Shown here piece after piece: positions 51,440 through 63,587 of a stretch of 64,000 bases of DNA. The stretch lies in contig JBKAGP010000001.1 of the NCBI GenBank assembly GCA_046290465.1, forward strand, positions 5,344,001 to 5,408,000, given 5' to 3'. Source of the DNA: Planctomycetota bacterium. GTDB taxonomy: Bacteria > Planctomycetota > UBA1135 > UBA2386. A model generated the notes under the pieces. The model was not told where the DNA came from, ran no database searches, and worked only from the letters and a program-made list of their open reading frames with translations. The stretch's first letter is position 1, and every line of letters starts with the position of its first letter. Position numbers and translations under genes: made by a program.

Positions 51440-52465
51440 CTACTTGTAGTGGCTGACGGGGCGCGGCCGGACGCCGAGCTTGTCGTATTGGAAGCCGCCC
51501 TCGAGCGGCTGGTAGTCGCCGACGATCTCGACGTTGAGGTCGGCCGTGATCTTGTCCTCGCGGCCGACGCACCACAGCGCGGCGTTGAGCGTCAGGCGGC
51601 GCAGGCCGGCCGACTGGTAGTCGCGCGCGCTGCCCATCGTGACGTGGAACACGCGCGCCGTCCTGCCGAGGTTGCCGGTCCAGCTGTTGGTCCACGCGAT
51701 CGGCAAAGGCGGCTTCTTCGGGTTGGGTTCGGCGTCCTTCTCGAGCGTCTTCAGCGGCTGGCCGAGCAGCAGCGGCGTGCACGAGGCCGGCAGGGACTTG
51801 CCCTTGTCGAACATCCGGTAGACGTCGGTGGGCCCCCAGACGTCGTCGACCCCGCGCAGGATCGGGTGATCCTTGTTGGCCTCGACGACGATGCCGCGCG
51901 TCGACTCACGGTGCCAGCCGCCGTAGTGGCCGCGGAACGCGCCGCCGAGCACGTCGTCGCCGAAGCGCACCCGCTTGCCGTCCTTCTGGTAGGTCCAGTT
52001 GCCGCGGAAGCCGTGGTTGGCGGTGCGGATGCCGAGGATCGGCTTGCCCGAGTCGAGGTAGGTGTCGAGGTGCGCGAGCTGCTCGTCGGGCAGCTTCATG
52101 AACCGCGTGAACACGATCGCGAGGTCGGCGTCGGCGAGCAGGTGCATGCCGGGAATCGTCTGGAACGCCTTGGGGTCCTTCGGCGGCGCCTCCTCGGTCG
52201 GGTCGACCATGCCGTTGCGCTGGCCGAACAGCACGGTGGTCTCGAAGCCGTGCCGTTCGGCGAGCAGCTTCGCCATCATCGGCATCGACTGCTCGGCGCG
52301 GTACTCCTGCTCGGCGGCGATGAGGACGACGTGCAGGCCCTTGCCGACGCCCTTCGTGCCCTGGTAGTGGAGCCACTGCGGCTCCTGGCGGTCGGCGGCG
52401 GCGTCCTGGGCCGGAACGGCCGCGAGCGCGAGCGCTGCGGCGACGACGGTGCGGAGGGCGTTCAC
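51440..52465 (-). CDS. secreted ThuA-like domain protein
   Basis: Signal peptide PA|Q; VVLIAAEQEYRAE, GIRTANHGF, HPILRGV, PIAWT, RVFHVTMG. GTGA overlap. Confidence 0.8.
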   Translation of the reverse strand: MNALRTVVAAALALAAVPAQDAAADRQEPQWLHYQGTKGVGKGLHVVLIAAEQEYRAEQSMPMMAKLLAERHGFETTVLFGQRNGMVDPTEEAPPKDPKAFQTIPGMHLLADADLAIVFTRFMKLPDEQLAHLDTYLDSGKPILGIRTANHGFRGNWTYQKDGKRVRFGDDVLGGAFRGHYGGWHRESTRGIVVEANKDHPILRGVDDVWGPTDVYRMFDKGKSLPASCTPLLLGQPLKTLEKDAEPNPKKPPLPIAWTNSWTGNLGRTARVFHVTMGSARDYQSAGLRRLTLNAALWCVGREDKITADLNVEIVGDYQPLEGGFQYDKLGVRPRPVSHYK

Positions 52466-53946
52466 TTCGGGATCCTGTTGAGGGTGTAGTGGGCGGTGGT
52501 GTGCACCAGCGCGTCGCCGTCGGCGCTCTCGATCGCGCCGAACGTGAAGTCGTGCACGTGGCCTTCGACCAGCCCGTCGACGACCAAGTGCACGCTGCGG
52601 CCGTCGGCCGACGCGATGGCGCGGGTGACCTTCGGCGTGGTCTCGTCGACCTCGGGGCTGCCGTAGAACTTCTGGTAGTGGTGCGTGAAGCTGCGCAACG
52701 CGTAGTTGTCGACGTCCTGCAGCGTCTTCGGGTCGCACGGTTTGGTGAACGACACGTCGAAGCCGTCTTTGGCGGCCGTGATCTTCAGCACGTCGAACGG
52801 CGTCACGCCGGTCCACTCCAGGCGCTCGAGCACGTAGCTCTTGTTGCCGCGCACCGGCCAGCCGCGGTTGGTGCCGCCGGTGATCAGGTAGCCGCGATCG
52901 GAGAACTCGAGCGCCAGGATGCCGTTGCCGAGCCCTTCGCGGAACGGGTAGCACGCGCCCTGCCAGACGCCGTCGACCTCTTCGGTCGTGGCGCGCATCA
53001 CGATGCTCAGGCTGTAGTCGCCGACGAACAGCTGGTCCTGGAACGGGCCGAAGCGGCCCTCGGTGCGGTCGGGTCGGAACGCGGTGATCGACTGGCCCAT
53101 GCGGCGATACGGGAACACCACCGCATACGGCACCAGCTCGTCGATGCGCTGGCTCTCGGCGTGCAGCCGTGAGCGGTTCTCCGGCTCCTTCGGCCTGGCA
53201 CCGAGCTGCTTGCCGAGCGGCAGGTCGTAGCCCGGGAAGCAGATCGGGTGGCCCATGAAGCCGCCTGGCTTCAGGTGCTTGAGCGAGCACGAGCCGTTCC
53301 ACGGGCCCTGGCTCTCGACGTAGAACATCACGCCGTGCTCGTTCGGCGCGACGCCGCCGGCGCTGCGGATGCCGGTGGCGATCGGGATGCTCTTGCCCTC
53401 GGGCGTGATCTGGAACGCGAAGCCGCGGTAGTCGGCCTTGTAGTGGTAGGACGACGACAACCCGAGCACGACGTAGACGCTGCCGTCGGGCTGCACCGGC
53501 GAGCCCCACGCGAACTCGTGGTAGTGCTCGAAGCCCCAGACGTCGCTGAGGTTCTCGAAGCGGTCGGCGCGGCCGTCGCCGTCGCGGTCGGAGATGCGGG
53601 TGAGCTCGGTCTGCTGCGTCGCGTAGAACGCGCCGTCGCGGTAGCCGAGCCCGAGCACCTCGTCGAGTCCCGAAGCGAACGTCGTGATCTCCGGTCGGGG
53701 CAGCTCCTCGAACGCGCCGTCGACGATCAGGATCTCGCCGCGGCGCGTGCCGATCGCGAGCCGACCCTCGGGCAGGGCGACGAAGCTGCCGCACTCGAGC
53801 GACAGCTCGCGCGGGATCGGCAGCTCGACGATGCGGTAGTGCCGGGCCTCGGCGTTGGCGGTGCCCCAGGTGCCGCCGAGCTCCTGCGCGCCGGCGGCGG
53901 CCGCGAGCATCGCCGTGACCAACGAACTGCGGAACGCGTGCATCAC
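52462..53946 (-). CDS. secreted glucose/sorbosone-dehydrogenase-like beta-propeller protein (PVC type)
   Basis: DRDGDGRAD, YHEFAWG, ATGIRS, QGPW, GPFQDQLFVGD, GGTNRGW, HHYQKFYGSPE. Start GTG 53946 or ATG 53943. Confidence 0.75.
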   Translation of the reverse strand: MMHAFRSSLVTAMLAAAAGAQELGGTWGTANAEARHYRIVELPIPRELSLECGSFVALPEGRLAIGTRRGEILIVDGAFEELPRPEITTFASGLDEVLGLGYRDGAFYATQQTELTRISDRDGDGRADRFENLSDVWGFEHYHEFAWGSPVQPDGSVYVVLGLSSSYHYKADYRGFAFQITPEGKSIPIATGIRSAGGVAPNEHGVMFYVESQGPWNGSCSLKHLKPGGFMGHPICFPGYDLPLGKQLGARPKEPENRSRLHAESQRIDELVPYAVVFPYRRMGQSITAFRPDRTEGRFGPFQDQLFVGDYSLSIVMRATTEEVDGVWQGACYPFREGLGNGILALEFSDRGYLITGGTNRGWPVRGNKSYVLERLEWTGVTPFDVLKITAAKDGFDVSFTKPCDPKTLQDVDNYALRSFTHHYQKFYGSPEVDETTPKVTRAIASADGRSVHLVVDGLVEGHVHDFTFGAIESADGDALVHTTAHYTLNRIPK

Positions 53947-56204
53947 TTGTCCTCCTGGCGGCGGTAGTCGACTTGCAGTTCGGTGCCTGCCGCGGTGGCG
54001 GTCACGGCGACGCGCACCTCGCGGTGCTTGCCGTCCTCGACCAGCAGCAGCGGCGACTGCGCGCAGCGCACCAGCAGGAAGCCGCCGACCAGCGCGGTGT
54101 GCTCGTCGACGAGCTTCAGGTTCTCGTCGCGGGCCAGGCGCAGTACCAGCTGGCCGTCGCCGACCAGCTGCATCGTGCGCTCGAGGACCGTGGCCTCGCC
54201 GTCGCGCCGTTCGCGCGGCGTGTCGGTGATCTGCACGTCACAGCAGGTGTAGCGGAACGACGGCCGCTGCTGCGCGTCGAGGTCGTAGCCGAGCCAGCGG
54301 TCGCCGCGCTCGCGGCGGGTCGTGGCCGGCCAGCTCGCCTGCGCGACGTTCGAGGGCGCGAACTGCGGCTGCAGCGGCAGCCGGGCGCGGCGCCGTTCGA
54401 GCACGTGCGCCTGGCCGCTGCCCTGGCTGGTCCACACCGGCCGCGCGTCGACGAAGCGGCCCCACCAGATCTGGTTGAGCACCAGCGTCTCGGCGTCGAA
54501 CGTCAGGTTGACGCCGCCCGGGTAGCCGACGCTGATGCCGCGCTTGCCGGTGTTCTGCACCGCGCGCCGCAGCATCACCGCTTCGTCGGCGACCGTCAGC
54601 TCGATCGGCGGCCGGCGCAGGCCGCTCGGCTTGCGCACGTTGCGACCCTTGGCGAGGTAGTGCCAGAGCCCGGCGAGCTGCGCGTCGACGTCGCCGTCGG
54701 CGAGCTCGGGGCGGGTCGACGTGCCGCCGGGGAAGAACTGCGGCATCAGCGTGCCCGGCTTGAACGCGAACGGGTCCTTCATGAAGTGCACGAACCACTC
54801 CGGCCGCAGCCGTTCGCCGGTCGAGTGCAGCAGGTCGATGCCGGCCATCGAGCCGCCCTGCTCGCCCGCGAACAGGTGGCACGCGATGCAGCCCATGCCC
54901 TTGTCGCCGGCCAGCTGCTGGCCGAGCTTGACGACCTCGTCGGCCTGCTTGCGGTCTGCGGGCAGCGGTGCGATCGCAACCGGTTCGAGCGTGTCGGTCG
55001 CGGCCAGGTCGTCGGCGAGCCGTTCGGCGAACGCGACGCCGAAGCCCGGCATGCGCGTCTTCAGGTACGGCCGTTCGTGCTGGCCGTGCGCGATCGTGTT
55101 GCCCAGCCACGCGCGCTGCAGCTTGGCGCCGACGCCGGTCAGCGGCGGCGGCACGCGGCCTTCGGGGCCGAGCGTCGGATCATGGCTGTCGAAGCGGTCG
55201 GCGTGCGCGTCGAGCAGGTCGATCTCGCCGCGCACGTGGCAGGCGATGCAGTTGCGCGAGGCGAGCTGCTGGCGGATGCGCGCCTCGCCCGCCAGCGGGT
55301 TGCCCTGCAGCGCGAGCGCCAGGTCCTGGCGCTGCCGTTGGTCGAGCGCGTAGTAGGGCCACGCACCGACCGTGCCCGACAGGCAGCCAGCGCTGGCGTC
55401 CAGTTCGGCGAGCGGTCGGGCCTGCTTGCTGGCAGGACGCGCCGCGTCCTCGAGCTGGTGGCAGTTGCCGCAGCCCAGCTCGGCGAAGTGGGCGCGGCCG
55501 GCTTCGACCGCGGCCGCCGTCGACGGCTGGGCCGGCACCGACGAGGCCGGGTCGCGCAGCAGGTGGTTGGCGAGCGCGTTGGCCTCGGTCGGCGACAGCT
55601 CGAACTCCGGCATGCGCGCCGCCGGCCGCGCCCGGTGCGGCGCCAGCAGGAACGCCTGCAGCGAGGCGATCGTGTACTTGTCGCGCAGGTTGTGCATGCC
55701 CGCCGGGTTCTGGTCGTGGCAGGCGCGGCAGCCGAGCGTGTCCCAGAGCTGCTGGCCCGGCGCGACCGCGGCGGCGTCGGCCGGCACGTCGTCGAGCACG
55801 GCGGTCGCGAACGACTGCAGGTAGCTGGCCAGGGAGTCGGCGGTGTCGCGCGCCGTGCTGCCGTCGACGGCGCGCAGCAGGTCGGGCATCGCGGTGCCCG
55901 GCTCGACGTGCAGCGGCGAGGCGAGGTAGTGGCGCAGGTAGTCGCCGCGCACGCGCGCGCCGACCGTCTGCAGGTCGGGCGCGGGCCGCGCTTCGGCGAG
56001 CCCGTCCGGATCGGCGTGGCAGTTGGTGCAGCCGAGTTCGCCGAGCAGCACGCGGCCGCGAACGATCGGTTCGAACTCGGCTTCGGCGAGGCCGGCGACG
56101 ACCGGGGCGTGGTCGGGGCGTTCGACGGGCGACCCGCAGCTCGTCGTGGGCAGGACGAGCGCGAGCCACGCGGCGCCGTGGCGGGCGATGGACGGACGCG
56201 GCAT
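53943..56204 (-). CDS. pentaheme c-type cytochrome (probable lipoprotein)
   Basis: CTNCH, CRACH, CGNCH, CIACH, CIACH; distal xMP motifs (AMPDL, RMPEF, RMPGF, LMPQF); TTSC lipobox-like. Confidence 0.87.
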   Translation of the reverse strand: MPRPSIARHGAAWLALVLPTTSCGSPVERPDHAPVVAGLAEAEFEPIVRGRVLLGELGCTNCHADPDGLAEARPAPDLQTVGARVRGDYLRHYLASPLHVEPGTAMPDLLRAVDGSTARDTADSLASYLQSFATAVLDDVPADAAAVAPGQQLWDTLGCRACHDQNPAGMHNLRDKYTIASLQAFLLAPHRARPAARMPEFELSPTEANALANHLLRDPASSVPAQPSTAAAVEAGRAHFAELGCGNCHQLEDAARPASKQARPLAELDASAGCLSGTVGAWPYYALDQRQRQDLALALQGNPLAGEARIRQQLASRNCIACHVRGEIDLLDAHADRFDSHDPTLGPEGRVPPPLTGVGAKLQRAWLGNTIAHGQHERPYLKTRMPGFGVAFAERLADDLAATDTLEPVAIAPLPADRKQADEVVKLGQQLAGDKGMGCIACHLFAGEQGGSMAGIDLLHSTGERLRPEWFVHFMKDPFAFKPGTLMPQFFPGGTSTRPELADGDVDAQLAGLWHYLAKGRNVRKPSGLRRPPIELTVADEAVMLRRAVQNTGKRGISVGYPGGVNLTFDAETLVLNQIWWGRFVDARPVWTSQGSGQAHVLERRRARLPLQPQFAPSNVAQASWPATTRRERGDRWLGYDLDAQQRPSFRYTCCDVQITDTPRERRDGEATVLERTMQLVGDGQLVLRLARDENLKLVDEHTALVGGFLLVRCAQSPLLLVEDGKHREVRVAVTATAAGTELQVDYRRQEDK

Positions 56205-56253
56205 GCCGCGGAGCATACGTCCCGCGCGCGCGGACCGTAGGATCTCGGCCACC
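56205..56253. promoter_or_regulatory. putative bidirectional promoter with back-to-back -10 boxes
   Basis: TATGCT on minus (56212-56217, 7 nt before ATG 56204) and TAGGAT on plus (56238-56243, 10 nt before ATG 56254), all in a 49-bp gap. Confidence 0.55.
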
Positions 56254-58634: not shown

Positions 58635-58820
58635 TCATTCGGCGGGATCGCCCGCACAGGTGCCGTTGCAGACTGCGCCGCAGTGCGCACACAGCGCCGC
58701 GAGCGCGGCACGGCCGCAGTGGGGGCAGCGGTCGTCGGCCGGCCGTTTCTCCGGCACCGAGCCACAGTTTCGGCAGATCAGGGCCTCGCCGCCTCGCGGC
58801 GCGTCTGGTTGGGGTTCCAT
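58635..58820 (-). CDS. small Cys-rich zinc-ribbon-like protein (61 aa)
   Basis: GAGG 4 nt before ATG; CRNC, CPHC, CAHC, CNGTC; lies in an otherwise empty gap. Confidence 0.55.
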   Translation of the reverse strand: MEPQPDAPRGGEALICRNCGSVPEKRPADDRCPHCGRAALAALCAHCGAVCNGTCAGDPAE

Positions 58821-58901
58821 CCGCCTCGGCCGGCGCCGGTGGCTGCGCGGACCCGCCACTTTTTCTCGCCACGGACGACGCAGACGCTAGGGTTTCGCCC
58901 C

Positions 58902-59657
58902 GTGAACCTCGTCCAGCGCAAGCTCTTGATGGGTGGGCTGGTGGCTGCGTTCGCGGTGCAGACCGCCCTCGTCTACACCGATGATACGGCTTCTTCGTTC
59001 GAGACCCTGAGCGAGGAGGCGCTGCGCGGCCGCCGCCTCTGGCACGAATACAACTGCCAGACCTGTCACCAGATCCACGGGTTCGGGGGCTTCCTCGGCC
59101 CCGACCTGACCAACGCCGCCCGCCGTCTGACCGACGAGCGCCTCACCGAGGTGCTGACCGTCGGCACAGCGCAGATGCCGGCGTTCCACTTCGACGAGGA
59201 CCAGGTCTACCAGCTCGCGACGTTCCTCGACGAGCTGAGCGTGATGGGGGTCGGCGTGCCGCGTGCGGTGCAGCCGGTCGACCTCGGCGTGGTGCTGGCC
59301 GCGATCGATTCGCGGCTGGCGGAGGCCAGCCCGGGCGAGGCCGTCGCGCGCGGTGCCGGCGCGTTCAAGATGAACTGCATCTCGTGCCACGTGCCGCTGC
59401 AGGCGACGCCGCTCGGCCTGCAGACGGCGCCTGACCTGTCGACCGCGCTGCGGCGCATCGACGAGGCCGCGGTGCGCGACACGATCACCAACGGCCGCCC
59501 CGAGCGCGGCATGCAGGCGTGGCAGCACCTCGGCGAACAGCCGATCGCGGACCTGACCGCGTTCGTGAAGTGGCTGAACGACGACCGTGACGCGATCGCG
59601 GCGCAGGCCGGCGGCGCGGGCGTGGCCCAGCCGATTCCGTGGTGGGAGTACCGATGA
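58902..59657 (+). CDS. membrane-anchored diheme cytochrome c, NorC-like
   Basis: N-terminal TM; GRRLWHEYNCQTCHQIHGFGGFLGPDLT..QMPAF; second domain CISCH..APDLS..RGMQAW. Confidence 0.85.
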   Translation: MNLVQRKLLMGGLVAAFAVQTALVYTDDTASSFETLSEEALRGRRLWHEYNCQTCHQIHGFGGFLGPDLTNAARRLTDERLTEVLTVGTAQMPAFHFDEDQVYQLATFLDELSVMGVGVPRAVQPVDLGVVLAAIDSRLAEASPGEAVARGAGAFKMNCISCHVPLQATPLGLQTAPDLSTALRRIDEAAVRDTITNGRPERGMQAWQHLGEQPIADLTAFVKWLNDDRDAIAAQAGGAGVAQPIPWWEYR

Positions 59658-61015
59658 CCGACGATTTCACCGACGCGATGCTGCAGAAGACCAGCGGCGT
59701 GCAGGTTCGCATGGCGCTGATCTGCGTGCTGGTGACCGTCTTCGGCGGCGCGTTCAGCGCGCTCTACTACATCCCTTCGGTCGCGACCGCGCTCAACGAG
59801 ATGGGCGTGCAGATGACCTCGATGCGTCCGATCCACACCGCGTTCGCGTCGATGTGGATCTTCGGCGCGAGCGTCGCGGTCGCCTACCACTGGATGGCGA
59901 CCAGCCACGACGGCCTCGACCGCGGCGACCTGCTGCGCTTCCGCATCCACACGGTCTGCTGGATCGTCGCCGGTGTCGGCATCTTCGCGACGCTGCTGTC
60001 CGGCATCAGCACGGGTCGCGAGTACCTCGGCTTCCACCCGGCGTTCAGCGCGATCCTGCTGTTCGGCTGGCTGTGCTTCGCCGTCAGCCTGCTCAAGCGC
60101 TTGCGTCACGGCTTCTGGGGCCAGCCGATCTACATCTGGTTCTGGACCGTCGGCACGCTGTACTTCGTCTACACGTTCGTCGAAGGCCACGCCTACCTGC
60201 TGCCCGGCGTGTTCGAGAGCCCGATCCGCGACCTGCAGGTGCAGTGGAAGTCGTGCGGCACGCTGGTCGGCTCGTTCAACTTCCTGATGTACGGCTCGCT
60301 GACCTACGTCGGCGAGAAGATGTCGGGCGACAAGACCTACGCGCAGTCGCCGGTGGCGTTCTGGCTGTTCGGCGTCGGCTGCCTCAACAGCTTCACCAAC
60401 TACGTGCACCACACCTACCACCTGCCGCAGACCGAGGTGGTCAAGTGGGTGGCGTTCATCGTGTCGATGATGGAGATCATCATCCTCATCAAGCTGATGA
60501 TGGACCTCGGCAGGATGTTGCGCGGCAGCAAGGTGCAGTTGCCGTTCTGCGGCCGCGGCGGCTGGTTGACGCAGGCCAAGTACTGGACCGTCGCGATGTT
60601 GACGACGTCGATCATCATCTCGGTGCCGACGTTCAACACGCTGATCCACGGCACCCAGCTGGTCATGGGCCACGCGATGGGCGCGACCGTCGGCATCGAC
60701 ACGCTGGTGCTGCTCGGCACCTCGTCGTGGCTGGTCTACGAACTGCGCGGCGAGGCGATCCAGGCCCGCATGAACGCGCCGATCACCCGCTTCGCGATCC
60801 TGCTGATCAGCGTGTCGCTGGCGGTGCTGGTGATCTGGCTGAGCGTCGCCGGCTTCGCGCACGGATCGAGCCGCTACTATGGCGAGCCGACGCCGGAGTG
60901 GGTCGGCACCAGCCGGCTGCTGCTGCCGGTCGTCGGCTCGGCGCTCGGCGTGGGTCTGGTGATCGCGACGTGGCGATTGCTGTCGATGATGCGCAGCCGC
61001 GCGGCGGCGGCGTGA
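59654..61015 (+). CDS. heme-copper oxidase superfamily subunit I, cNOR/cbb3-related, non-canonical ligand set
   Basis: About 12 TM; RPIHT, GREYL, VQWKSCG, YVHHTYH, SMMEI, HGTQLVMGHAMG. ATGA overlap with the cytochrome gene. Confidence 0.87.
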   Translation: MTDDFTDAMLQKTSGVQVRMALICVLVTVFGGAFSALYYIPSVATALNEMGVQMTSMRPIHTAFASMWIFGASVAVAYHWMATSHDGLDRGDLLRFRIHTVCWIVAGVGIFATLLSGISTGREYLGFHPAFSAILLFGWLCFAVSLLKRLRHGFWGQPIYIWFWTVGTLYFVYTFVEGHAYLLPGVFESPIRDLQVQWKSCGTLVGSFNFLMYGSLTYVGEKMSGDKTYAQSPVAFWLFGVGCLNSFTNYVHHTYHLPQTEVVKWVAFIVSMMEIIILIKLMMDLGRMLRGSKVQLPFCGRGGWLTQAKYWTVAMLTTSIIISVPTFNTLIHGTQLVMGHAMGATVGIDTLVLLGTSSWLVYELRGEAIQARMNAPITRFAILLISVSLAVLVIWLSVAGFAHGSSRYYGEPTPEWVGTSRLLLPVVGSALGVGLVIATWRLLSMMRSRAAAA

Positions 61016-63455: not shown

Positions 63456-63541
63456 CCCAGTTGGTGCCGTTGGCCCAGTTGGTGCCGCTGGCCTCCTTGG
63501 TGCCGCTGGCCCCCTTGGTGCCGTTGGCCCCCTTGGTGCCG
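63456..63541. repeat. intergenic 18-bp tandem repeat (about 4.8 copies, core TTGGTGCCGYTGGCC)
   Basis: Units start at 63461, 63479, 63497, 63515, with a partial unit at 63533; lies between convergent genes. Confidence 0.9.
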
Positions 63542-63587
63542 TGTGCGCGGTTCGCGAAAGTTGGAGGATGAACCGCGTACCGTACGG

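What the first reader, a model, noticed from the sequence alone, without database searches (positions are those of the whole stretch)
58902..61015. Heme-copper oxidase superfamily enzyme with a rewired active site (NorCB-like, but not a canonical NOR or oxidase)
Seen: H61 (RPIH), GREY, H252/H253, SMME and HGTQ..H340 are retained. Helix VI reads DLQVQWKSCGTLVGSF, where cbb3 has DAMVQWWYGHNAVGFF and cNOR has HLWVEG, so the first CuB/FeB His and the NOR helix VI glutamates are absent, with Lys199/Cys201 at that site. The HxH heme pair is H340-A-M342, implying a His/Met low-spin heme. The partner cytochrome has two hemes, whereas NorC has one. Established: six His ligands are near-invariant in O2 and NO reductases, and His/Met ligation usually raises heme potential. 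The ORF is intact and coupled on both sides, so decay is unlikely. Inference: different chemistry, such as N2O, NO or sulfur-species turnover. I recall a cNOR-related clade of unproven function in superfamily surveys, so it may be catalogued but uncharacterised; I could not verify this.
Basis: partly seen in the sequence, partly recalled or inferred. Interest (0 to 1): 0.9.

Follow-up and report, generated by a model that had tools for sequence, protein, structure and literature searches.

The report
NorCB-like haem enzyme, rewired site
This gene pair in a marine planctomycete encodes a membrane haem enzyme built like bacterial nitric-oxide reductase but lacking a normally universal metal-binding histidine; it belongs to a published but never tested enzyme family, so its substrate is unknown.

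Summary
Window 58902-59657 encodes a membrane-anchored dihaem cytochrome c. Window 59639/59654-61015 encodes a 12-helix NorB/CcoN-like protein. The two genes overlap by ATGA.

Alignments to cbb3 and cNOR show these replacements:
- the helix-VI CuB/FeB His is Gly207;
- cNOR Glu211 and Glu215 are Gly211 and Asn214;
- the second axial His of the low-spin haem is Met347.

His66, Glu128, His257/258, Glu279 (= cNOR Glu280), His337 and His345 are kept. Lys204 is invariant (115 of 115 close homologues). Cys206 holds only within the clade and is Tyr in Bacteroidota.

The pair is a conserved two-gene cassette (79 of 80 loci) with no conserved third gene. By elimination in one named genome, and by taxon range, it is the Planctomycetota/Gemmatimonadota branch of the family that Murali et al. 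2024 call "N2Ored": a cNOR relative proposed, without tests, to reduce N2O. This scan noted the Bacteroidota branch before (e1-2851256).

The host genome has aa3 and cbb3 oxidases but no nar, nap, nirK, nirS, nrfA, canonical nor or nosZ. Of 51 carrier genomes, 30 lack nirK, nirS and nosZ.

Best reading: a stand-alone, cytochrome-c-driven reductase of a small N-oxide (NO about 35%, N2O about 25%). The substrate is unproven. It is a new member of a catalogued, uncharacterised family.

The parts
58902..59657 (+). Dihaem cytochrome c subunit (251 aa): an N-terminal membrane anchor, a NorC-like haem c domain, and a second class-I haem c domain
   Evidence: Pfam finds Cytochrome_CBB3 twice. Residues 6-110 match NorC 3o0r_C (E 3e-8) and residues 143-229 match CcoP. 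A homologue lies directly upstream of the HCO gene in 79 of 80 related loci.
59055..59069 (+). First haem c attachment motif, CQTCH
59376..59390 (+). Second haem c attachment motif, CISCH
59639..61015 (+). NorB/CcoN-like catalytic subunit: 458 aa from GTG 59639, or 453 aa from the more likely ATG 59654, which overlaps the cytochrome stop as ATGA
59834..59836 (+). His66, helix II, axial ligand of the low-spin haem b (by homology)
   Evidence: Invariant; aligns with the RPLH His of cbb3 and cNOR.
60020..60022 (+). Glu128 of GREY, equivalent to the Glu of cNOR GREFLE and cbb3 KEY
   Evidence: Its role as the Ca2+/propionate-site Glu is recalled knowledge.
60230..60277 (+). Helix VI segment DLQVQWKSCGTLVGSF. 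Lys204 (60248-60250) is family-specific. Cys206 is clade-specific. Gly207 (60257-60259) replaces the CuB/FeB His. Gly211 replaces cNOR Glu211.
60278..60280 (+). Asn214, at the place of cNOR Glu215
60407..60412 (+). His257-His258, the retained helix-VII pair of metal ligands
60473..60475 (+). Glu279 in helix VIII, equivalent to cNOR Glu280. It is Ala in the subgroup that has His204/Asp207.
60647..60649 (+). His337 of the HGT motif shared with cNOR
60671..60679 (+). His345-Ala-Met347. His345 is the proximal ligand of the high-spin haem b3. Met347 replaces the second axial His of haem b.

Best explanation
Two translationally coupled genes encode a NorCB-type membrane complex.

Electron entry: electrons from periplasmic donors enter through a membrane-anchored cytochrome c. 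Its first domain is NorC-like. A second haem c domain is an addition of this clade.

Catalytic subunit: electrons pass to a 12-helix NorB-like subunit. That subunit carries a low-spin haem b held by His66 and Met347, and a high-spin haem b3 on His345.

Rebuilt pocket above haem b3: the helix-VI His and both helix-VI Glu of cNOR are replaced by Gly207, Gly211 and Asn214. What remains is His257, His258 and Glu279 (= cNOR Glu280), plus an invariant Lys204 one turn up helix VI. Either a non-haem metal is still held by a 2-His/1-carboxylate set with Lys204 nearby, or the Lys amine itself takes the place of the lost ligand or charge.

Family: the protein belongs to the Planctomycetota/Gemmatimonadota branch of the family that Murali et al. 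2024 list as 'N2Ored'.

Function: I commit to a cytochrome-c-driven two-electron reductase of a small nitrogen oxide at haem b3. In this organism it would act as a stand-alone scavenger or detoxifier rather than as a step of denitrification. Odds: NO to N2O about 35%, N2O to N2 about 25%.

Shown: homology, residue replacements, conservation, gene coupling, and the absence of denitrification genes. Inferred: haem ligation, metal content, proton path and substrate.
For: Fold and family:
- COX1 scores 50.3 bits.
- The model has pLDDT 86.3 and matches cbb3 CcoN and cNOR NorB at TM 0.76-0.80.
- A 65-sequence family profile hits cNOR best (4xyd_A 8e-32, 3o0r_B 6e-24), then cbb3 (4e-22) and qNOR (2e-19).
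- In a quick tree the family is one clade (SH-aLRT 97) next to the single cNOR row (91), with cbb3 and A-type outside.

Residue map.

Conservation:
- The combination K204/G207/E279/M347 is found in 114 of 115 close homologues, 120 of 120 Bacteroidota-type homologues and 54 of 78 50%-identity representatives.
- 17 of those 78 instead carry H204/D207/A279/M347. A carboxylate and a basic or ligand residue are therefore always present, which argues for a working site.

Partner:
- It is NorC-like.
- It is adjacent in 79 of 80 loci.
- It is fused to the C-terminus of the HCO in P0145, P0162, P0189 and P0190.
- The two genes overlap as ATGA.

Identity with 'N2Ored':
- The paper's table lists A 1, C 1, eNOR 1 and N2Ored 1 for SZUA-318.
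- That genome holds exactly 4 COX1 matches. One is A-type (HPEVY), one is cbb3 (QWWxGH/GHVH), one is a third match that I take to be the eNOR, and the fourth is the family member of L054.
- The taxon ranges agree.

Stand-alone role:
- The own genome (94% complete, one contig) has no NosZ, NirK, NirS, NrfA, NarG or NapA over cut-off.
- It has only three COX1 genes: A-type, cbb3 and this one.
- Neighbours are housekeeping genes.
Against: No substrate evidence exists for any member.

Against NO reduction: in cNOR the His207 and Glu211 equivalents are taken to be needed for FeB and for activity (recalled knowledge). Losing both may abolish NO reduction.

Against a nitrogen-cycle role:
- Carrier genomes show no clear tie to the nitrogen cycle. 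NosZ is found in 10 of 50 genomes, NirK over cut-off in 11 of 51 and NirS in 3 of 51. Thirty of 51 have none of the three. These are MAGs of unknown completeness. I gave the tool 50 of my 80 loci because of its limit.
- I measured no background rates for comparison.
- The five nearest relatives searched (G002-G006) have none of the three.

Other weaknesses:
- Many Bacteroidota carriers also have qNOR or cNOR in the paper's table, so a second NO reductase would be redundant there.
- I could not read the model's coordinates, so the position of Lys204 relative to haem b3 is inferred from helix periodicity only.
- The tree has a single, long-branched cNOR row, and the careful search did not finish.
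Confidence: 0.6

Rival explanations
1. It is specifically a haem-based, copper-independent nitrous oxide reductase (N2O to N2), as Murali et al. 2024 suggest for the family. This is nested in the best explanation as its second substrate option.
For: [quoted passage not shown]
- Solitalea canadensis, the present name of that organism (recalled), has one N2Ored gene. S. longa and S. koreensis have none.
- 40 of 50 carrier genomes and the own genome lack NosZ, so the enzyme would not be redundant there.
- The loss of the cNOR FeB ligands fits chemistry other than NO coupling.
Against: - S. canadensis also has nosZ and nosD in the same paper's table, so the old activity needs no new enzyme.
- No member has been assayed.
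- I know of no haem/non-haem site that reduces N2O biologically (recalled).
- 10 of 50 carriers have both enzymes.
Confidence: 0.25
2. It reduces an oxygen species (O2 at low tension, or H2O2/peroxide) as a microaerobic or oxidative-stress scavenger in aerobic, host- or particle-associated bacteria.
For: - Carriers are mostly aerobes with A-type and often cbb3 oxidases.
- Most carriers lack N-oxide enzymes.
- Up to four or five redox centres could deliver several electrons.
- Tyr206 next to the missing His is found in 118 of 120 Bacteroidota-type members.
- In Bacteroidota-type loci, a Crp/FNR-type regulator gene is nearby in 11 of 80 and a HemN-like gene in 5 of 80, hinting at low-oxygen control.
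Against: - The cbb3 cross-linked Tyr position is Ser251 here, and the helix-VI His that carries the cross-link is gone.
- Murali et al. use loss of that Tyr as the mark of non-oxidases.
- The same regulators also control NO and N2O reductases (recalled).
- The organism already has two oxidases.
Confidence: 0.15
3. It is an ordinary NOR or oxidase in which another His restores a three-His site, so the apparent loss is an alignment artefact.
For: - HMMER's alignment to 4xyd_A opens an 8-residue gap in helix VI and puts Asp198 on the cNOR His, which shows the register is not trivial.
- H261 is 115 of 115 in the close clade and H184 is common.
Against: - The ungapped register D-x-x-x-x-W..(H/G) agrees between cbb3 and a MAFFT L-INS-i alignment with a cNOR and three cbb3 genes. 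That register puts Gly207 on the His.
- H261 is His in only 28 of 78 family representatives, and never in 120 Bacteroidota-type members.
- H184 varies (H/N/Y/F/...).
- No other His is invariant.
Confidence: 0.03
4. It is a decaying or non-catalytic relic, for example an electron-transfer or sensor protein that has lost its active site.
For: - Three of the four cNOR FeB ligand or neighbour residues on helix VI are gone.
- There is no conserved functional neighbourhood.
Against: - The ORF is intact and coupled.
- The pocket residues K204, N214, H257, H258, E279 and H345 are invariant or nearly so across Planctomycetota, Gemmatimonadota and Bacteroidota.
- The subgroup change K204/G207/E279 to H204/D207/A279 is coordinated.
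- 392 clusters at 50% identity exist.
Confidence: 0.04

Closest known systems
cNOR, cytochrome-c-dependent nitric oxide reductase NorCB (P. aeruginosa 3O0R, Roseobacter denitrificans 4XYD)
   Same: - It is the best profile match in the PDB (8e-32 and 6e-24).
- The 12-helix fold matches at TM 0.76-0.80.
- Shared residues: helix II His; the GRE(Y/F) Glu; the helix VII His-His; Glu279 = Glu280; the HGT motif; the proximal His.
- The partner is NorC-like and membrane-anchored.
- The gene order, cytochrome then catalytic subunit, is the same.
   Different: - FeB ligands His207 and Glu211, and Glu215, are Gly207, Gly211 and Asn214.
- The second haem b ligand is Met, not His.
- Lys204 replaces a Trp.
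- The partner has a second haem c domain.
- No NorQ/NorD-type or other nor genes lie nearby.
'N2Ored' HCO family of Murali et al. 2024 (PNAS 121:e2316422121; PMC11214002)
   Same: - It is a separate clade next to cNOR in the C-family branch.
- The taxa agree: Bacteroidota, Planctomycetota UBA1135 and SM1A02, Longimicrobiales UBA6960, Woeseiaceae.
- The SZUA-318 genome's fourth HCO is a member of my family.
   Different: - Nothing shows a difference. The paper's readable text does not describe the active site of this family.
- Its statement that gNOR is the first HCO to replace an active-site His does not mention this family.
- Its SI appendix and alignment could not be read.
- This window's protein is from the branch with a dihaem partner, Cys206 and His261.
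cbb3-type cytochrome c oxidase subunit CcoN (3MK7, 8SMR)
   Same: - Helix VI aligns without gaps (D-x-x-V-Q-W).
- The RPLH, KEY/REY, HH and G-H-x-(H/M) motifs and the fold match.
- NCBI's pipeline names family members 'cbb3-type cytochrome c oxidase subunit I'.
   Different: - The CuB His207 is Gly.
- The cross-linked Tyr position is Ser251.
- The second haem b His is Met.
- The partner is NorC-like rather than CcoO plus CcoP.
- The organism has a real cbb3 elsewhere.
nNOR and gNOR (B-family-derived putative NORs, Murali et al. 2024)
   Same: They are precedents for each single change. nNOR has a His/Met low-spin haem. gNOR has an active-site His replaced, by Asp.
   Different: - Those families descend from B-type oxidases and have cupredoxin-type subunit II.
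- This family descends from the cNOR/cbb3 branch, has cytochrome c partners and combines both changes.

Membership tests
Haem-copper oxidoreductase superfamily, subunit I (Pfam PF00115) | 12-helix fold and a profile match | tested here: met
   COX1 scores 50.3 bits against a cut-off of 34.8. The model has pLDDT 86.3 and about 12 long helices. TM is 0.76-0.80 to CcoN and NorB.
Haem-copper oxidoreductase superfamily, subunit I (Pfam PF00115) | Helix II His plus helix X His as axial ligands of the low-spin haem | tested here: not met
   His66 is present. The helix X partner is Met347: 114 of 115, 120 of 120 and 74 of 78 in the three sets.
Haem-copper oxidoreductase superfamily, subunit I (Pfam PF00115) | Proximal His of the high-spin haem (helix X) | tested here: met
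   His345 is invariant in A1 and A2 and aligns to the cbb3 and cNOR His.
Haem-copper oxidoreductase superfamily, subunit I (Pfam PF00115) | Three His for CuB/FeB: one in helix VI and two in helix VII | tested here: not met
   His257 and His258 are present. The helix VI position is Gly207 (115 of 115 and 120 of 120), or Asp in 18 of 78 representatives.
cNOR (NorB/NorC) | FeB ligands His207 and Glu211, with Glu215 nearby (HLWVEG..E) | tested here: not met
   These are Gly207, Gly211 and Asn214. The HLWVEG motif is present in the cNOR of genome G011 used as reference.
cNOR (NorB/NorC) | Glu280 (helix VIII), the GREFLE Glu, and HGT before the haem ligands | tested here: met
   Glu279, Glu128 and His337-Gly-Thr align to them.
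cNOR (NorB/NorC) | Membrane-anchored mono-haem NorC encoded directly upstream | tested here: inconclusive
   The upstream protein matches NorC over residues 6-110 (3o0r_C, 3e-8) but carries a second haem c domain. Bacteroidota-type members have a 138-aa mono-haem partner.
cNOR (NorB/NorC) | NO reductase activity | not testable with these tools
cbb3 oxidase (CcoN) | CuB His207 cross-linked to the helix VII Tyr | tested here: not met
   Gly207 and Ser251 occupy those columns.
'N2Ored' family (Murali et al. 2024) | A distinct clade beside cNOR in the C-family branch | tested here: met
   The profile ranks cNOR above cbb3 above qNOR. In the quick tree the family clade has support 97 with cNOR as sister at 91. 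That tree has one cNOR row only, and the careful search was unfinished.
'N2Ored' family (Murali et al. 2024) | Being the sequences the authors counted as N2Ored | tested here: met
   The paper lists A 1, C 1, ENOR 1 and N2Ored 1 for SZUA-318 sp003248075. The genome holding L054 (record titled isolate SZUA-318) has exactly 4 COX1 matches, and the weakest (62.5 bits) is the family member. This is indirect: the paper's sequences and alignment could not be read.
'N2Ored' family (Murali et al. 2024) | N2O reductase activity | not testable with these tools
   The paper only proposes it. The organism behind the proposal also has nosZ.
NOD / qNOR | A fused N-terminal NorC-like extension of about 300 residues | tested here: not met
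   The protein is 458 aa and aligns only to residues 303-767 of qNOR 3ayf_A.

The most novel reading that the evidence does not exclude
The family is a second, copper-independent biological route for N2O (or another small oxidant) reduction. In it, the classical three-His/Glu metal site of NO reductase has been rebuilt from two His, Glu279 and an invariant Lys204. The Lys would act as a direct, possibly carbamylated, metal ligand, or as a metal-free proton or charge donor. In a sister subgroup the same job is done by His204/Asp207. If so, marine Planctomycetota, Gemmatimonadota and Bacteroidota that score as non-N2O-reducers by nosZ surveys would be hidden N2O sinks.
Probability: 0.2. Interest if true: 0.9.

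Novelty: new member of a known kind. Interest (0 to 1): 0.55.

Why it matters
Nitrous oxide budgets and denitrification gene surveys count nor and nosZ genes. This family is annotated either as 'cbb3 oxidase subunit I' or as 'nitric oxide reductase subunit B', and the residue evidence suggests it may be neither.

It is rare overall: 392 clusters among 1.84 billion representatives. It is nevertheless widespread in marine and host-associated Planctomycetota, Gemmatimonadota and Bacteroidota.

Knowing its substrate would settle whether a haem enzyme without the canonical metal site can reduce NO or N2O. It would also show how far the haem-copper scaffold can be rewired.

The concrete residue map here makes the question directly testable by mutagenesis in culturable Bacteroidota carriers. 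The map consists of Gly207, Gly211, Asn214, Lys204, Glu279 and Met347, plus the coordinated His204/Asp207/Ala279 variant.

Tried and rejected
- Single-sequence search of the PDB gave only a spurious pentatricopeptide hit. Profiles were needed.
- HMMER's gapped helix-VI alignment to 4xyd_A, which puts Asp198 on the cNOR His, was rejected in favour of the ungapped register supported by cbb3 and by MAFFT L-INS-i.
- A substitute His (H184 or H261) was rejected because it is not conserved outside the clade.
- A conserved third gene was sought and not found. The downstream class-V aminotransferase-like gene is in 2 of 80 loci, the M20 peptidase in 9 of 80, and the next most common neighbour cluster in 15 of 80. 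These are housekeeping functions.
- The paper's alignment PDF holds no text, and its SI appendix is too large to read. 'N2Ored' is not a column of Dataset S8.
- Cluster look-up gave almost no names.
- The careful tree did not finish in two 300-s calls, so the quick tree is reported.
- RNA evidence: contigs from three metatranscriptome runs (X18, X19, X20) lie on parts of both genes at about 88-99% identity. They are contigs of relatives, and DNA carry-over cannot be excluded, so this is no proof of transcription.
- The look-up of this scan's findings by sequence found nothing. The look-up by words found one.
- No complex prediction was run, because the pair is a textbook NorC/NorB analogue.
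- Literature searches for any assay of the family found none.
Full report
**What is there.**
On the + strand, window 58902-59657 encodes a 251-aa cytochrome c with two CxxCH motifs (59055-59069 and 59376-59390). Window 59639-61015 encodes a 458-aa membrane protein. Its likely start is ATG 59654, which overlaps the cytochrome's TGA as ATGA. The stop overlaps the GTG of a downstream class-V aminotransferase-like gene as GTGA. In this 70% G+C DNA long spurious ORFs overlap the locus. The frame is nevertheless real:
- Pfam COX1 scores 50.3 bits against a cut-off of 34.8.
- There are 330 homologues with E <= 0.001 among the candidates scored, the best at 86% identity.
- The AlphaFold model has pLDDT 86.3 and pTM 0.88.
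- That model matches cbb3 CcoN and cNOR NorB at TM 0.76-0.80 with 14-17% identity.

No NCBIfam model claims the protein.

**Checking the residues.**
A profile of 31 close homologues (A1) reached only cbb3 CcoN in the PDB (8smr_E, E 6e-4). The alignment in helix VI has no gaps. The family's D-L-Q-V-Q-W-K-S-C-G-T-L-V-G lies on cbb3's D-A-M-V-Q-W-W-Y-G-H-N-A-V-G. This puts Gly207 on the CuB His. G-H-A-M-G lies on G-H-V-H-A-G, which puts Met347 on the second axial His of haem b.

A broader profile of 65 sequences (A2) ranked cNOR first (4xyd_A 8e-32, 3o0r_B 6e-24). Next came cbb3 (4e-22 to 3e-15) and then qNOR (2e-19). It aligned these residues:
- GREY on cNOR GREFLE;
- His257/His258 on the cNOR His-His;
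- Glu279 (S-M-x-E) on cNOR S-A-L-E, the Glu I recall as Glu280;
- H-G-T on cNOR H-G-T;
- His345 and Met347 on H-G-H.

HMMER opened an 8-residue gap in helix VI against 4xyd_A. I reject that register. A MAFFT L-INS-i alignment with a cNOR (HLWVEG present) and cbb3 genes taken from related genomes reproduces the ungapped one. In it Lys204 lies on a Trp, Gly207 on the His, Gly211 on cNOR Glu211, Asn214 on cNOR Glu215, and Ser251 on the cbb3 cross-link Tyr.

**Conservation.**
Among 115 close homologues of 400-560 aa:
- K204, G207, N214, H257, H258, H261 and E279 are 115 of 115;
- M347 is 114 of 115;
- Cys206 is 103 of 115.

Among 120 homologues of a Bacteroidota-type member (3,418 proteins at E <= 1e-30 among the candidates scored):
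- K204, G207, E279 and M347 are 120 of 120;
- position 206 is Tyr in 118 of 120;
- position 261 is never His.

A search of 1.84 billion 50%-identity representatives with the A1 profile found 392 proteins at E <= 0.001, 282 at <= 1e-10 and 150 at <= 1e-30. The family is therefore small and sharply separated from ordinary oxidases. Of the 78 listed representatives of 400-560 aa:
- 54 carry K204/G207/E279/M347;
- 17 carry H204/D207/A279/M347;
- the rest are singletons.

The only His invariant over the whole family are H66, H257, H258, H337 and H345. No alternative His restores a canonical site. The coordinated switch between the two combinations keeps one carboxylate and one basic or ligand residue at the pocket. 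I take that as indirect evidence for a working, probably metal-bearing, site. It is probably a single evolutionary event, so it has no statistical weight.

**The partner and the cassette.**
Residues 6-110 of the cytochrome match NorC of P. aeruginosa cNOR (3o0r_C, E 3e-8). Residues 143-229 match a CcoP haem domain.

A scan of one genome per species found 223 confirmed relatives, of which 80 loci were kept. A homologue of the cytochrome lies directly upstream in 79 of the 80. The remaining locus, L022, starts inside the HCO gene. The downstream aminotransferase is shared by 2 of 80 loci and the upstream M20 peptidase by 9 of 80. After crude ORF clustering, the next commonest neighbour occurs in 15 loci, and the neighbours are housekeeping genes.

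Some distant members fuse the HCO to C-terminal FixO-like and cytochrome c domains (P0145, P0162, P0189, P0190). In 80 metagenome loci of the Bacteroidota branch:
- the partner is a 138-aa mono-haem cytochrome, in 51 loci;
- an AsnC-type regulator lies nearby in 18;
- a Crp/FNR-type regulator in 11;
- CtaA in 9;
- a HemN-like gene in 5.

The second haem c domain is therefore an addition of this clade.

**Is it catalogued?**
Yes. I read the outline, sections 5 and 10, passages, and Datasets S1, S4 and parts of S6 and S8 of Murali et al. 2024 (PMC11214002). [quoted passage not shown] It counts 25 NCBI genomes, 597 IMG metagenome hits and 293 GTDB genomes.

Its tree leaves and species table include Flavobacterium, Cloacibacterium, Phycisphaerales SM1A02, Planctomycetota UBA1135, Longimicrobiales UBA6960 and Woeseiaceae. 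That is the taxon range I find.

One row gives SZUA-318 sp003248075 as A 1, C 1, ENOR 1, N2Ored 1. My locus L054 is a contig titled isolate SZUA-318. Its genome holds exactly four COX1 matches. One is A-type (HPEVY), one is cbb3 (QWWxGH, GHVH), one is a third that I take to be the eNOR, and the fourth, at 62.5 bits, is the L054 family member. By elimination the family is N2Ored.

My quick tree agrees with the paper's placement. The family is a clade (SH-aLRT 97), the single cNOR row is its sister (91), and cbb3 and A-type lie outside. Inside, the H204/D207 subgroup (98) is sister to the rest (98). The careful search was unfinished and there was only one long-branched cNOR.

The readable text does not describe this family's active site, and it calls gNOR the first HCO to replace an active-site His. 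The SI appendix and the alignment could not be read and may hold that description. Six literature searches found no assay of the family. This scan recorded the Bacteroidota branch earlier with the same reading (e1-2851256).

**Context in genomes.**
The window's genome is one 6.59-Mb contig, 94% complete. It has three COX1 genes: an A-type, a cbb3 (QWWxGH and GHVH) and this one. Nothing exceeds the cut-off for:
- NosZ (only a 26-bit CuA-like piece);
- NirK (46 bits);
- NirS (a 29.5-bit fragment of 79 positions);
- NrfA, NarG or NapA.

- NosZ was found in 10 of 50;
- NirK over cut-off in 11 of 51;
- NirS in 3 of 51;
- 30 of 51 have none of the three.

These are MAGs of unknown completeness, and I measured no background rate. 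The five nearest relatives searched have none. The cassette is thus not tied to denitrification.

The paper's argument for N2O reduction rests on Flexibacter (now Solitalea, recalled) canadensis. That species has one N2Ored gene while two congeners have none. It also has nosZ, nosD, nirK, napAB and qNOR, so the argument is thin.

DNA nearly identical to the locus occurs in algal, aquaculture, marine and coral metagenome runs. Contigs from three RNA libraries cover parts of both genes at about 88-99% identity. This is only a weak hint of expression in relatives.

**How it most likely works.**
Shown: a NorC-like cytochrome and a NorB-like subunit are co-inherited, coupled and sometimes fused. 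The ligands for two b-type haems are kept, with Met for His on the low-spin haem. Two of the three metal His and the Glu280 equivalent are kept. The helix-VI ligand set is gone and Lys204 is fixed.

Inferred: electrons flow from haem c to haem b (His/Met) to haem b3. According to the paper's remark on nNOR, His/Met raises the potential by about 150 mV. The pocket above b3 either holds a non-haem metal on His257/His258/Glu279 with Lys204 nearby, or uses the Lys amine in its place. A two-electron reduction of a small oxidant takes place there.

I commit to a nitrogen oxide as substrate, because every characterised close relative is an NO reductase and the retained residues are cNOR signatures. 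My odds are:
- NO about 35%;
- N2O about 25%;
- an oxygen species about 15%;
- other or none for the rest.

In this organism the enzyme must act on externally supplied substrate, because no enzyme that would make NO or N2O was found.

**Verdict.**
It is a new member, from the dihaem-partner, Cys206 and His261 branch, of a published, uncharacterised family. It is interesting because the function is open and testable, but it is not categorically new.

Noticed in passing
window 58635-58859 (-): A 74-aa Cys-rich ORF with three CxxC pairs lies in the gap between the M20 peptidase gene and the cytochrome c gene, on the opposite strand. It has only weak rubredoxin-like and zinc-ribbon Pfam matches, below the cut-offs. 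It may be a small metal-binding protein or a spurious high-GC ORF.
   Followed up: partly
window 63461-63542: An 18-bp tandem repeat, 4.6 copies with 90% matches, lies just downstream of the dienelactone-hydrolase gene and inside overlapping ORFs on both strands.
   Followed up: no
window 51440-56240 (-): A run of typical planctomycete genes: a ThuA-like protein, a DUF7133 protein (494 aa), and a 765-aa protein with several cytochrome c-type motifs and domains. It is shared with only 4-5 of the nearest loci.
   Followed up: partly
proteins P0222-P0270 (representatives): A sister subgroup of the family has His204, Asp207, a third His after the His-His pair, and Ala in place of Glu279. One cluster is named Gammaproteobacteria. 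It looks like an alternative way to build the same pocket.
   Followed up: partly
proteins P0145, P0162, P0189, P0190: These family members of about 800 aa have the HCO domain fused to C-terminal FixO-like and two or three cytochrome c domains.
   Followed up: partly
loci L104-L183 (Bacteroidota-type metagenome loci): Genes for Crp/FNR-type regulators (11 loci), AsnC-type regulators (18), haem A synthase CtaA (9) and HemN-like radical SAM proteins (5) recur beside the cassette. This hints at oxygen- or NO-responsive control and perhaps at an unusual haem.
   Followed up: partly
G011 contig C3 (loci L093, L098): In one carrier genome the family gene (205397-206725) lies about 32 kb from a cNOR gene (172461-173753) and 37 kb from nirS (167127-168299), on the same contig but not adjacent. 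The family gene's match there contains one in-frame TGA.
   Followed up: no
G000:C1:5197122-5198408 (locus L086): The organism's genuine cbb3 CcoN gene lies about 205 kb upstream of the finding. Its open frame is 825 aa, much longer than a usual CcoN, perhaps through a fusion or an upstream extension.
   Followed up: no
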